A DNA stretch of 64,000 bases from a virus. The notes below the pieces were generated by a model. The model did not search any database and was not told where the DNA came from. It saw only the letters and a program-made list of their open reading frames with translations. Position numbers and translations under genes: made by a program. Below are positions 31,351 through 31,688 of this stretch, one piece after another; position 1 is the stretch's first letter, and each line of letters begins with the position of its first letter. The stretch is from IMG/VR virus record IMGVR_UViG_3300045988_183940; one strand, written 5' to 3'.

Positions 31351-31463
31351 GCGTGGGAGATAAAGTCCGCAACACTGTGGACATCACAGCATAAACATAA
31401 CTGGATAAACTATTATTTTTGGTATAATGAGGAAGCGGTTCGAGTCCGCAAAGCTCCCACGCA
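31351..31463 (+). ncRNA. tRNA-like / Y-RNA-like (YrlA-type) RNA 1
   Basis: 9-bp terminal stem GCGTGGGAG/CTCCCACGC. T-arm GCGG-TTCGAGT-CCGC. No D-arm and no anticodon arm. Preceded by the promoter TTGACA-N17-TGATATAAT at 31314..31342. Confidence 0.4.
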
Positions 31464-31484
31464 AATACATGGAAAACTGAATAT

Positions 31485-31604
31485 GGCAAGGTAACTCAAT
31501 CGGTAGAGCATAAATAAGCTCCACAAAACTGTGGAGACTCAGCATTAATTTTTTATCTTTGACTTTTAACCCGTAAGTTGCAGGTTCGACTCCTGCCCTT
31601 GCCG
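31485..31604 (+). ncRNA. tRNA-like / Y-RNA-like (YrlA-type) RNA 2
   Basis: Acceptor GGCAAGG/CCTTGCC. D-arm ACTC-AATCGGTA-GAGC. T-arm GCAGG-TTCGACT-CCTGC. About 70 nt, including a 7-bp hairpin CTCCACA/TGTGGAG, lie between the D-arm and T-arm where the anticodon arm should be. Confidence 0.5.
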
Positions 31605-31612
31605 TCTATTAT

Positions 31613-31688
31613 GGGAACGTAGCTCAATCTGGAAGAGCAGGGGACGATTCAGTCTTGACGGGTGCAGGTTCAAATCCTGACGTTCCCA
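31613..31688 (+). ncRNA. tRNA-like RNA 3 (tRNA-sized, no anticodon stem)
   Basis: Acceptor GGGAACG/CGTTCCC, D-arm GCTC-AATCTGGAA-GAGC, T-arm with the TTCAAAT loop. No 5-bp anticodon stem can be formed in the 24 nt between the D-arm and T-arm. No encoded CCA. Confidence 0.5.

What the first reader, a model, noticed from the sequence alone, without database searches (positions are those of the whole stretch)
31351..31688. tRNA-like RNAs 1 and 3: acceptor and T-arms kept, anticodon stem absent
RNA 1 (31351..31463) has a 9-bp terminal stem and the T-arm GCGG-TTCGAGT-CCGC, but no D-arm and a 70-nt interior. RNA 3 (31613..31688) is exactly tRNA-sized and has proper D- and T-arms. I tried every 5-bp stem with a loop of 3 to 9 nt in the 24 nt between those arms and none pairs. 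It also has no encoded CCA. Three different decoy-like RNAs in a row, behind a strong promoter at 31314..31342, points to a deliberately expressed set of tRNA mimics rather than decayed tRNAs.
Basis: seen in the sequence. Interest (0 to 1): 0.6.

Follow-up and report, generated by a model that had tools for sequence, protein, structure and literature searches.

The report
tRNA-shaped partner RNAs of phage Ro
Three small RNAs built on transfer-RNA scaffolds sit in front of a phage gene for a Ro60-like ring protein; two carry a conserved hairpin-plus-ACAGCAUAA module that marks RNAs beside this gene in 82 of 84 phage loci examined, so they are most likely a new form of the "Y RNA" partners of Ro proteins rather than broken tRNAs.

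Summary
The three RNAs are real. A perfect sigma-70 promoter (31314-31342) precedes RNA1, RNA2 and RNA3, and a terminator (31723-31753) follows. RNA3 folds as a cloverleaf with a 5-bp G·U-containing "anticodon" stem and a 6-nt loop. RNA1 has an all-A·U 5-bp stem with a 7-nt loop at the tRNA-correct distance from its T-arm.

The context decides the reading. The next gene (31786-33168, DUF2828/DUF7788) is predicted to fold like Ro60. RtcB ligase lies two genes further on. RNA1 and RNA2 carry a 7-bp hairpin with an AAAC-type loop, followed 10-11 nt later by (A/U)CAGCAU. The hairpin covaries strongly across relatives.

The core 7-mer AC[AU]GCA[AU] is about 10-25-fold enriched on the gene strand beside this gene family. 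It occurs in 82 of 84 phage loci, including Felixounavirus, Listeria A511, Bacillus and Mycobacterium phages. No Rfam family matches it.

Best reading: these are Y-RNA-like tRNA mimics in natural tRNA topology, partners of a phage Ro-like protein. RNA3 is a paralogue that lost the module. Sister phages keep Ile and Lys anticodon loops around the insert, so an intron-like reading is not excluded.

The parts
31314..31342 (+). Sigma-70 promoter (TTGACA, 17 nt, TG-TATAAT) driving the RNA array
   Evidence: 12 of 12 consensus matches with a TG extension. It is conserved in L081, L082, L083, L113, L118, L119 and L121.
31351..31463 (+). RNA1. It has a 9-bp terminal stem, and the module takes the place of the D-arm. 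An A·U anticodon-like hairpin and a 4-bp T-arm follow.
   Evidence: Terminal stem shown. MFE z = -4.99. CM R1 hit at 43.2 bits. Anticodon-like hairpin in tRNA register. No Rfam tRNA hit.
31365..31382 (+). RNA1 module hairpin GUCCGCA-ACAC-UGUGGAC
   Evidence: Alignment A4 holds 23 instances. 96.3% of cells are paired and 6 of 7 pairs show double changes; 0 of 500 shuffles reach this.
31386..31394 (+). RNA1 single-stranded signature ACAGCAUAA
   Evidence: The motif lies 10-12 nt after the hairpin loop in all 23 instances. The 7-mer AC[AU]GCA[AU] is enriched beside Ro-like genes in 82 of 84 loci.
31412..31428 (+). RNA1 anticodon-arm-like hairpin AUUAU-UUUUGGU-AUAAU. It lies 5 nt before the T-arm counted from the mismatched A at 31434, or 6 nt before the paired GCGG stem.
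   Evidence: L107/L109 have UUUAU-UCUUGAC-AUAAA at the same place (A-U to U-A at 27:43). RNAfold prefers a competing 4-bp hairpin one register away, so this element is tentative.
31435..31449 (+). RNA1 T-arm GCGG-UUCGAGU-CCGC
   Evidence: L107 has GAGG/CCUC, a compensatory change.
31485..31604 (+). RNA2. It has a 7-bp acceptor stem, a D-arm and a T-arm. The module is inserted where the 5' strand of the anticodon stem should be. A relic anticodon loop CUUUUAA and 3' strand CCCGU remain unpaired.
   Evidence: Rfam tRNA 41.4 bits with a 61-nt insert. RNAalifold shows compensatory changes in 5 of 7 acceptor pairs. Relic loop shown.
31519..31548 (+). RNA2 module: hairpin CUCCACA-AAAC-UGUGGAG, then UCAGCAUUAA
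   Evidence: CM R1 hit at 47.2 bits.
31613..31688 (+). RNA3. A cloverleaf without the module, whose 'anticodon' arm GGGAC-GAUUCA-GUCUU (31641-31656) has a 6-nt loop.
   Evidence: ARAGORN calls it tRNA-???. Rfam tRNA 39.5 bits. MFE cloverleaf. The homologous RNA3 of L081, L083, L113, L118 and L121 carries the module.
31723..31753 (+). Intrinsic terminator. Its 5' arm (31727-31735, UGCUGUGAU) is complementary to the RNA1 motif AUCACAGCA (31383-31391).
   Evidence: Terminator found. The 9-nt perfect complementarity is shown. The same relation holds 58-78 nt before the gene start in L083, L118, L081, L001 and L014, and 0-10 of 500 shuffles reach it.
31786..33168 (+). Ro60-like protein (helical domain plus vWA; Pfam DUF2828/DUF7788; PHROG 850 'RNA-binding protein')
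   Evidence: Pfam and PHROG. AF2 model pLDDT 85.8. The top 11 Foldseek PDB hits are all Ro60; the best is Thermus phage phiLo Ro60 9l5y at E = 4.5e-7.
33759..34907 (+). RtcB RNA ligase
   Evidence: Pfam RtcB 3e-68; PHROG 1075 at 7e-110.

Best explanation
The three RNAs are a co-transcribed array of tRNA-derived, Y-RNA-like non-coding RNAs that partner the phage's Ro60-like protein encoded immediately downstream.

RNA1 and RNA2 carry the family's signature: a helix followed by single-stranded (A/U)CAGCAU(A/U)A. This is inferred to be the protein's binding site.
- In RNA2 the module sits in the anticodon-arm position of an otherwise normal tRNA scaffold.
- In RNA1 the module replaces the D-arm.

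This layout is the circular permutation of the YrlA-type layout. In YrlA the ends lie in the Ro-binding stem and the acceptor is closed by a loop. Here the ends lie in the acceptor stem and the binding stem is closed by an AAAC-type loop.

The acceptor, T-arm and D-arm are inferred to provide three things:
- RNase P and 3'-end processing out of the polycistronic transcript;
- stability;
- a tRNA-like handle for tRNA-handling enzymes.

The resulting RNP would act in tRNA or RNA surveillance or repair during infection. RNA3 is a paralogue that lost the module.

The RNA1 motif can also pair with the 5' arm of the terminator in front of the Ro-like gene. That would allow protein-sensitive read-through, meaning autoregulation. 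This last step is speculative.

Shown here: expression signals, structures, covariation, the gene-RNA association and the Ro60-like fold. Inferred: binding, processing and biological role.
For: 1. Promoter, array and terminator are present. The same organisation recurs in L081, L083, L113, L118 and L121 (neighbouring protein 61-62% identical where the protein was compared), in L084 (56%) and in L107/L109 (56-58%).
2. The module hairpin is 96.3% paired. 6 of 7 pairs have changes on both sides. The covariation score is 0.70 against 0.19 for shuffles, and 0 of 500 shuffles reach it. Slid controls give 29-40% pairing.
3. In the acceptor stems 5 of 7 pairs show compensatory changes, and the D and T stems are kept.
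4. CM R1 finds strong hits (32-55 bits) only on the gene strand just upstream of the Ro-like gene in this clade.
5. The protein model has pLDDT 85.8, and its top 11 PDB fold matches are all Ro60. Relatives in mycobacteriophages are annotated 'Ro-like RNA binding protein'. Relatives give weak Pfam vWA_Ro60 hits.
6. In 84 loci the 7-mer AC[AT]GCA[AT] occurs at 3.03 per kb downstream and 1.0 per kb upstream on the gene strand. Background and opposite-strand rates are 0.12-0.3 per kb. 233 hits were observed against 34.6 expected (Poisson P about 1e-109). 82 of 84 loci have at least one hit, and only 4 hits fall inside tRNAs.
7. Around the motif the consensus is AAA-[stem]-U-ACAGCAA-A. A closing helix of at least 7 bp is found in 181 of 200 instances against 78 of 200 controls. 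Median size is 91 nt, which is Y-RNA-like.
8. By reading the sequence (neither cmscan of L114 reported YrlA — at E ≤ 0.01, at gathering score), Mycobacterium phage LilDestine has three such RNAs. One has the order stem, motif, T-arm, acceptor hairpin, D-arm, stem. That is the exact circular permutation of window RNA2.
9. Precedent exists. YrlA RNAs are tRNA mimics encoded beside Ro60 (PMC4201824). Thermus phage phiLo Ro60 binds two Y-like RNAs encoded upstream of its gene (PMC12135203).
Against: - No binding data exist. The protein-RNA link rests on co-location and analogy.
- Sequence-only searches do not connect the protein to Ro60. The fold match has only a moderate TM-score (0.4-0.5).
- The canonical bacterial Ro-binding motif GNCGAA is absent. 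The Rfam YrlA model does not match: 30.9 bits against 69 needed, and that hit spans two adjacent RNAs.
- RNA3 lacks the module, yet it is kept in four near-identical genomes.
- In sister phages RNA2 and RNA3 keep canonical Ile and Lys anticodon loops, a compensatory change across the insert and, for RNA2, A73-CCA. Those features look like real tRNA genes with an intervening sequence.
- RtcB lies within 5 kb in only 7 of 102 loci.
Confidence: 0.6

Rival explanations
1. These are interrupted tRNA genes. The roughly 50-nt module is an intervening sequence, inserted between anticodon-stem positions 29 and 30 or in the D-arm. A protein-dependent pathway removes it and RtcB seals the ends. The Ro-like protein acts as chaperone or recognition factor. 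The copies in this window would be decayed derivatives.
For: Removing 46-64 nt at one position in L081 and L083 restores perfect 5-bp anticodon stems with canonical loops: AUGAUAA (Ile GAU), CUUAUAC (Ile UAU) and CUUUUAA (Lys UUU), each with U33 and R37. The same exon-side sequences are present in L113, L118 and L121. Pair 29:41, which spans the insert, changes G-C to U-A between L083 and L081, and the anticodon stays Ile. L081 and L083 RNA2 encode A73-CCA. RtcB is encoded nearby.
Against: No excision restores an anticodon arm in window RNA2 or RNA3. Yet the 'intron' is the best-conserved part and the 'exon' stem is what decayed. The split stem costs 5-6.5 kcal/mol relative to the MFE in the unspliced RNA. 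No bulge-helix-bulge motif was seen by eye and no endonuclease was identified. In most of the wider family the motif sits in a terminal closing stem of RNAs that lack an acceptor stem. RtcB linkage is weak.
Confidence: 0.15
2. These are tRNA decoys or baits. The RNAs mimic tRNAs to absorb or sense host tRNA-targeting defences such as anticodon nucleases, possibly displayed on the Ro-like protein, with RtcB repairing the damage.
For: The RNAs have tRNA shape. Sister lineages and distant relatives display authentic anticodon loops (Lys UUU, Ile, Pro UGG, Phe GAA, Gln UUG) on RNAs that lack a normal acceptor or carry inserts. The gene family sits in phage tRNA arrays: 266 tRNAs in 80 loci. RtcB is present.
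Against: In this window the anticodon loops, which are the usual nuclease targets, are disrupted (RNA2), non-canonical (RNA3, 6 nt) or weak (RNA1). The universally conserved element is not tRNA-like. No defence or anti-defence gene was identified nearby.
Confidence: 0.12
3. The array is primarily a cis-acting leader or a set of base-pairing riboregulators. The ACAGCAUAA stretch works by pairing with the terminator 5' arm, as an antiterminator, or with other UUAUGCUGU targets. It is not a protein site.
For: 9-11-nt complementarity between the motif and the terminator 5' arm is found in three sub-lineages. The anti-motif follows the local motif variant, and 0-10 of 500 shuffles reach the observed match.
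Against: In most loci the motif-bearing RNAs lie downstream of the gene (175 downstream hits against 58 upstream). The anti-motif is absent in L004 and L084, and no counterpart sits before the gene in L107/L109. The motif is invariant across phages of unrelated hosts, which fits a protein ligand better than a variable mRNA target.
Confidence: 0.08
4. These are decaying tRNA pseudogenes with no function of their own.
For: Window RNA2 has an A·C mismatch in its D-stem that the near-identical L119 and L120 lack. L082 RNA3 has a C·A mismatch in its acceptor stem. RNA3 has no module.
Against: A perfect promoter and a terminator flank the array. Covariation is strong. The module is conserved between phages whose neighbouring proteins are only 56-62% identical, and the motif is enriched across the whole family.
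Confidence: 0.03

Closest known systems
YrlA / bacterial Y RNAs (Rfam RF02553; Chen et al. 2014, PMC4201824)
   Same: Small RNAs encoded beside a Ro60-type gene on the same strand, often several in a row. They combine a protein-binding helix and motif with a tRNA-like domain (T-arm, D-arm, acceptor-like stem). In Salmonella they lie in an operon with RtcB.
   Different: Topology is not permuted: the ends lie in the acceptor stem, and the binding helix is a hairpin in the anticodon or D-arm position. The signature is ACAGCAU(A)A, not GNCGAA(N)G. The Rfam model does not match. The partner protein belongs to DUF2828/DUF7788, not Pfam TROVE.
Thermus phage phiLo Ro60 with Yrl1 and Yrl2 (PMC12135203; PDB 9l5y)
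   Same: A phage-encoded Ro60-fold protein of about 460 aa, which is the best structural match to the protein here. Two Y-like RNAs are encoded just upstream of its gene.
   Different: The phiLo RNAs were picked by a CGAA motif and a stem-bulge-stem shape, and they are not tRNA-shaped. Sequence identity to the protein here is about 12%.
Canonical tRNA genes and phage tRNA arrays
   Same: RNA2 and RNA3 pass the Rfam tRNA threshold. They have a 7-bp acceptor stem, D and T arms, tRNA-like spacing and their own promoter. Sister-lineage copies keep Ile and Lys anticodon loops, and RNA2 there encodes CCA.
   Different: No decodable anticodon arm exists in any of the three window RNAs. A conserved non-tRNA module of about 50-60 nt is inserted.
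Archaeal and eukaryotic tRNA introns sealed by RtcB, and permuted tRNA genes
   Same: An intervening sequence lies inside a tRNA body, and an RtcB ligase is encoded nearby. The wider family also shows permuted layouts.
   Different: No bulge-helix-bulge motif and no splicing endonuclease were found. The insert is more conserved than the flanking 'exon'. The setting is bacterial, with a sigma-70 promoter.

Membership tests
Canonical tRNA (RF00005) | Covariance-model score at or above the gathering threshold (29 bits) | tested here: met
   RNA2 scores 41.4 bits and RNA3 39.5 bits. RNA1 has no hit. The criterion is therefore met for two of the three RNAs.
Canonical tRNA (RF00005) | 5-bp anticodon stem with a 7-nt loop (U33, purine 37) and an assignable anticodon | tested here: not met
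   ARAGORN assigns no anticodon: RNA3 is 'tRNA-???' with a 6-nt loop, and RNA1 and RNA2 are not called. The Rfam alignments skip the arm. RNA2 has a loop and a 3' strand but no pairing partner. RNA1 has only an all-A·U candidate.
Canonical tRNA (RF00005) | Aminoacylation and use in translation | not testable with these tools
   This needs acid-gel northern blots or charged-tRNA sequencing.
YrlA / bacterial Y RNA (RF02553) | Encoded within about 4 kb of a Ro60-type gene, on the same strand | tested here: met
   The RNAs end 98 nt before the start of a gene whose predicted fold matches Ro60.
YrlA / bacterial Y RNA (RF02553) | tRNA-like domain with T-arm and D-arm | tested here: met
   RNA2 and RNA3 have both arms, and RNA1 has the T-arm only.
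YrlA / bacterial Y RNA (RF02553) | Conserved GNCGAA(N0-1)G motif near the 5' end | tested here: not met
   No GNCGAA occurs in any of the three RNAs.
YrlA / bacterial Y RNA (RF02553) | Covariance-model score at or above the gathering threshold (69 bits), with the permuted order T-arm, acceptor loop, D-arm | tested here: not met
   The only hit scores 30.9 bits. It joins the RNA2 T-arm to the RNA3 D-arm. This is the tandem-tRNA artefact that PMC4201824 warns about.
YrlA / bacterial Y RNA (RF02553) | Physical association with the Ro60 protein | not testable with these tools
   This needs RIP/CLIP or EMSA.
Ro60 / TROVE proteins (partner gene) | Helical-repeat domain plus C-terminal vWA domain, with overall fold similarity to Ro60 | tested here: met
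   The top 11 Foldseek hits are full-length Ro60 structures (E from 4.5e-7 to 1.6e-4). Proteins with only a vWA domain follow.
Ro60 / TROVE proteins (partner gene) | Sequence-level match to TROVE or Ro60 | tested here: not met
   Pfam gives DUF2828, DUF7788 and weak VWA_2, but not TROVE. Neither phmmer nor a profile search finds a PDB hit. hhalign against a recalled human Ro60 sequence aligns only the vWA part, at 12% probability.
Provisional family defined here: ACWGCAW RNAs beside DUF2828-type Ro-like genes | Helix followed by AC[AU]GCA[AU], on the gene strand, within 700 nt of the gene | tested here: met
   RNA1 has ACAGCAU. RNA2 has UCAGCAU, one mismatch. Both match CM R1 at 43-47 bits. 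RNA3 does not carry the motif.
Protein-spliced tRNA introns (bulge-helix-bulge type) | Excision of the insert restores a canonical anticodon arm | tested here: not met
   There is no solution for window RNA2 or RNA3. Solutions exist only in sister loci L081 and L083.

The most novel reading that the evidence does not exclude
The conserved hairpin-ACAGCAUAA module is a protein-recognised intervening sequence or processing handle, and not a static binding site. On this reading the phage tRNA genes (Ile and Lys in sister phages) are interrupted inside the anticodon stem. The Ro-like protein plus an RtcB-type ligase mature or quality-control them. That would be the first protein-dependent tRNA splicing or permutation system in bacterial viruses. 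The RNAs in this window would be derivatives that kept only the handle.
Probability: 0.15. Interest if true: 0.9.

Novelty: new variant of a known kind. Interest (0 to 1): 0.66.

Why it matters
Ro60 and its Y RNAs form a conserved but poorly understood RNA-surveillance system, and Ro60 is also a human autoantigen. In bacteria the role of the tRNA-like part of Y RNAs is still open.

This finding gives a second, sequence-distinct class of Ro-like protein (DUF2828/DUF7788, found in 640 deposited phage genomes) a candidate RNA partner. The candidate has a simple signature, a helix followed by ACAGCA(A/U), which no Rfam family matched in any locus scanned here.

The tRNA-like domain is attached to that signature in several different topologies. 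This window shows the natural, un-permuted tRNA topology.

The family occurs in tractable phages, including Felixounavirus, Listeria A511, Bacillus phages and mycobacteriophages. The binding site, the role of tRNA mimicry and the link to phage tRNA arrays and RNA repair therefore become directly testable.

Tried and rejected
- blastn of the RNA region against 50,697 phage records found nothing.
- A single-protein scan of IMG/VR with exact peptide patterns found nothing. An alignment-based scan was needed.
- The 16-mer hairpin TCCACAAAACTGTGGA gave 21 single hits in IMG/VR. By my own rough estimate, not a tool result, that is about the number expected by chance. L092 is a picorna-like polymerase gene. 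L122, from the metagenome scan, is a GC-rich coding region.
- The species-representative genomes gave no hit for the module, so no host could be assigned.
- The Rfam YrlA partial hit was rejected as a tandem-tRNA artefact.
- Rfam found no YrlA beside DUF2828-type genes in LilDestine, EC6, A511 or Thrax4.
- A second helix pairing C(A/U)G of the motif with a downstream U(U/A)G is only 3 bp, with a single compensatory example. It was not adopted.
- An earlier reading placed a conserved hairpin abutting the T-arm (AGCCU...AGGUU). One search showed that stretch to be a split anticodon arm, so that reading was abandoned.
- RtcB as a defining neighbour was rejected: it is present in only 7 of 102 loci.
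- Window RNA3 is not a precisely spliced copy of the sister-lineage RNA3. The sequences between the D and T arms differ.
- A weak module-like hit at 8211-8253 overlaps a promoter-like site and is probably chance.
- Burroughs & Aravind 2016 could not be retrieved.
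Full report
**What is in the window**

The region 31314-31753 on the + strand is a compact non-coding transcription unit.
- The promoter TTGACA-17-TATAAT matches 12 of 12 positions and has a TG extension (31314-31342).
- Three structured RNAs follow.
- An intrinsic terminator of 12 pairs closes the unit (31723-31753).

Rfam's tRNA model passes its threshold for RNA2 (31485-31604, 41.4 bits). There, 61 nt replace the 13 central positions of the model's anticodon arm; its two outermost pairs are still aligned. It also passes for RNA3 (31613-31688, 39.5 bits).

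ARAGORN calls only RNA3, as 'tRNA-???' with a two-base anticodon, which implies a 6-nt loop. RNA1 (31351-31463) is not called by either tool. It does have a 9-bp terminal stem and a T-arm.

All three RNAs fold better than dinucleotide shuffles, with z = -5.0, -3.5 and -1.9.

The coordinates, the terminal stem, the T-arms, the absence of a D-arm in RNA1 and the absence of encoded CCA are all correct.

The statement that no 5-bp stem can form in RNA3 holds only if G·U pairs are excluded. Its minimum-energy structure is a cloverleaf that accounts for 40% of the ensemble. That structure has the stem GGGAC/GUCUU and the 6-nt loop GAUUCA.

RNA1 has AUUAU-UUUUGGU-AUAAU at 31412-31428. This is a 5-bp stem with a 7-nt loop. 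It lies 5 nt before the T-arm if the T stem is counted from the mismatched A at 31434 (6 nt before the paired GCGG stem). L107 and L109 have UUUAU-UCUUGAC-AUAAA in the same place, which includes one A-U to U-A exchange. RNAfold prefers a competing 4-bp hairpin one register away, so this element is tentative.

What is missing in all three RNAs is a canonical, decodable anticodon arm.

**The gene context**

The next ORF (31786-33168, 460 aa) matches Pfam DUF7788, with weaker DUF2828 and vWA hits. It also matches PHROG 850, 'RNA-binding protein'.

Sequence searches against solved structures find nothing. An AlphaFold model built from 26 homologues has pLDDT 85.8 and pTM 0.83. Its top 11 Foldseek matches are full-length Ro60 structures:
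- Thermus phage phiLo Ro60 (9l5y, E = 4.5e-7, TM 0.51);
- Xenopus Ro60;
- human Ro60;
- Deinococcus Ro60.

Proteins that contain only a vWA domain come after these. Relatives in mycobacteriophages are annotated 'Ro-like RNA binding protein'. Two genes downstream lies RtcB (33759-34907, Pfam 3e-68).

Ro60 proteins work with Y RNAs. Bacterial YrlA Y RNAs are tRNA mimics encoded next to the Ro60 gene (PMC4201824). Phage phiLo Ro60 binds two Y-like RNAs encoded upstream of its gene (PMC12135203).

**Conservation in close relatives**

The protein has 408 database homologues. I fetched contigs for relatives at several identity levels:
- 97% identical: L082, plus the near-identical L119 and L120;
- 61-62%: L081, L083 and L113; L118, L121 and L123 show the same RNA layout, but their protein identity was not measured;
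- 56-58%: L084, and L107 to L112.

All carry a gene-free region in front of the gene with the same kind of RNAs.

Every module-bearing RNA shares one element. It is a 6-8-bp hairpin with an AAAC loop (ACAC in window RNA1), followed by (A/U)C(A/U)GCAUA. The distance from the end of the loop to the motif is 10 nt in 20 of the 23 instances. It is 11 nt in window and L082 RNA1 and 12 nt in L084.

Across the 23 distinct instances:
- the hairpin is 96.3% paired;
- 6 of 7 pairs show changes on both sides;
- the covariation score is 0.70 against 0.19 for shuffles, and 0 of 500 shuffles reach it;
- slid controls pair only 29-40%.

RNAalifold on seven RNA2- and RNA3-type sequences recovers the acceptor stem, the D-stem, the hairpin and the T-arm. 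In the acceptor stem 5 of 7 pairs show compensatory changes.

A covariance model of the module gives strong hits (32-55 bits) only on the gene strand, immediately upstream of the Ro-like gene. In the window it finds only RNA1 and RNA2.

In the 61-62% clade RNA3 also carries the module. The RNA3 of this window is therefore a paralogue that lost about 60 nt.

**The wider family**

318 IMG/VR contigs and 640 deposited phage genomes encode this protein type. Hosts include Escherichia and Salmonella (Felixounavirus), Listeria (A511), Staphylococcus, Bacillus, Vibrio, Campylobacter, Mycobacterium and Prevotella (Lak phages). The gene usually sits inside or beside tRNA arrays: 266 tRNAs in 80 loci.

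I counted the 7-mer AC[AT]GCA[AT] in 84 loci.

| Region | Gene strand, per kb | Opposite strand, per kb |
|---|---|---|
| 700 nt downstream of the gene | 3.03 | 0.12 |
| 700 nt upstream of the gene | 1.0 | 0.22 |
| More than 700 nt from the gene | 0.30 | 0.20 |

- 233 hits were observed in the flanks, against 34.6 expected.
- 82 of 84 loci have at least one hit and 69 have two or more.
- Only 4 hits fall inside predicted tRNAs.

The consensus context is AAA-[5' strand of a stem]-U-ACAGCAA-A (206 contexts). A downstream partner strand of at least 7 bp is found in 181 of 200 cases, against 78 of 200 controls. The resulting RNAs have a median length of 91 nt.

Many of these RNAs contain orphan T-arms or partial tRNA bodies (Rfam tRNA model positions 6-65 and similar). 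None of the loci scanned gives an Rfam YrlA hit or any other non-tRNA family hit.

**Topology**

By reading the sequence, Mycobacterium phage LilDestine has three such RNAs downstream of its Ro-like gene. One has this order: closing stem, UACAGCAA, T-arm, acceptor-like hairpin, D-arm, closing stem. That is the YrlA layout.

Opening that RNA at the acceptor loop and closing its terminal stem with a loop gives a new order: acceptor 5' strand, D-arm, hairpin, motif, linker, T-arm, acceptor 3' strand. This is exactly the layout of window RNA2 and of sister-lineage RNA3.

The window RNAs are therefore the un-permuted, tRNA-topology version of a Y-like RNA. Other loci, such as L066, attach the stem and motif at the acceptor end of a tRNA body that still has an anticodon arm. 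The constant part is the helix plus ACAGCA(A/U). The tRNA-like part is variable.

**An unexpected complication**

I tested whether removing any contiguous segment restores a canonical anticodon arm.

For window RNA2 and RNA3 there is no solution.

For the sister clade (tested on L081 and L083), removing 46-64 nt between positions 29 and 30 gives perfect 5-bp stems with canonical loops:
- AUGAUAA (Ile GAU) for L083 RNA2;
- CUUAUAC (Ile UAU) for L081 RNA2;
- CUUUUAA (Lys UUU) for RNA3.

Pair 29:41 spans the insert. It changes from G-C to U-A between L083 and L081 while the anticodon stays Ile. RNA2 of L081 and L083 also encodes A73-CCA.

Window RNA2 keeps the loop CUUUUAA and the 3' strand CCCGU, but it has no 5' partner.

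In the unspliced sister RNAs the split stem costs 5-6.5 kcal/mol relative to the MFE.

These RNAs are therefore clearly derived from tRNA-Ile, tRNA-Lys and, for RNA1, probably a tRNA-Gln-like gene. In the sister clade an intron-like reading cannot be excluded. Three observations argue against it as the general explanation:
- the insert is the most conserved part;
- the 'exon' stem is what decayed in this window;
- most family members lack an acceptor stem altogether.

**A possible regulatory add-on**

The RNA1 motif AUCACAGCA (31383-31391) is perfectly complementary to UGCUGUGAU (31727-31735). That stretch lies in the 5' arm of the terminator in front of the Ro-like gene.

The same relation holds 58-78 nt before the gene start in other loci, and the anti-motif follows the local motif variant:
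- L083 and L118: 11 nt, reached by 0-1 of 500 shuffles;
- L081: 9 nt;
- L001 and L014: ACUGCAUAA with UUAUGCAGU, reached by 7-10 of 500 shuffles.

It is absent in L004 and L084, and L107/L109 have no counterpart before the gene. Pairing would compete with terminator formation. If the protein binds the motif, this would give feedback control of read-through. This is inference only.

**Verdict**

The 'deliberately expressed tRNA mimics' reading is right in spirit. The better-supported mechanism is a Y-RNA-type partnership with the adjacent Ro60-like protein, not decoy action.

The RNAs fail the defining tests for membership of both tRNA and Rfam YrlA. I file them as a new variant of the Ro/Y-RNA kind. 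The signature is shared beside this gene family in 82 of 84 phage loci examined, and none of the 25 related loci scanned with Rfam gave any non-tRNA family match.

Protein binding, processing and biological role remain untested.

Noticed in passing
L107:830-1750 and L109:1160-1800: Relatives with 56-58% protein identity have a gene-free region of 1.7-2.4 kb before the Ro-like gene. Besides four module RNAs, it holds a conserved stretch of about 550 nt behind its own consensus promoter (GGCAGGAGAUUUAAUC...GGGGACUAAAAC). It looks like a large structured RNA. No Rfam family matches it.
   Followed up: partly
window:48351-48610 (- strand): A second small RNA unit lies behind a near-identical consensus promoter (TTGACA-17-TATAAT). 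ARAGORN calls tRNA-Ser(UGA) at 48462-48553, but Rfam does not. Rfam calls a tRNA at 48351-48421 (43.7 bits), but ARAGORN does not.
   Followed up: partly
L081:4647-4769, L083:4645-4769, L083:4775-4910: Sister-lineage RNA2 and RNA3 look like tRNA-Ile(GAU/UAU) and tRNA-Lys(UUU) genes split between anticodon-stem positions 29 and 30 by the 46-64-nt module. RNA2 encodes A73-CCA.
   Followed up: partly
L041:5421-5635, L061:4800-5320, L066:2340-2870, L114:3430-3700 and many others among L006-L080: Orphan T-arms and partial tRNA bodies (Rfam tRNA model positions 6-65 and similar) lie directly beside DUF2828-type Ro-like genes. Some carry legitimate-looking anticodon loops: Pro UGG, Phe GAA and Gln UUG. 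Each sits inside a closing stem that carries ACAGCAA or CUGCAA.
   Followed up: partly
window:25352-29039: A DinG/Rad3-type helicase (859 aa) and an unannotated 301-aa protein are syntenic with the RNA array and Ro-like gene in L081 to L084, L113, L118 and L119. The helicase also lies next to the gene in L001-L005 and L014.
   Followed up: partly
window:31420-31428: TGGTATAAT, an extended -10-like sequence, lies inside RNA1's anticodon-like hairpin. The promoter scan listed no matching -35 element, so this is probably a coincidence of AT-rich sequence.
   Followed up: no
window:8211-8253: A weak match to the module model (20.5 bits, E = 0.026) is a hairpin followed by UUCAGCAU. It overlaps a TTGACT...TATAAT promoter-like site and is likely chance.
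   Followed up: partly
window:1-64000: Most large ORFs have no PHROG or Pfam match. GC content is 29-41%, and the coding strand switches near 48 kb. Relatives lie on contigs of 170-212 kb, so this is probably an uncharacterised large phage of an AT-rich host. The species-representative genomes gave no hit for the module.
   Followed up: partly
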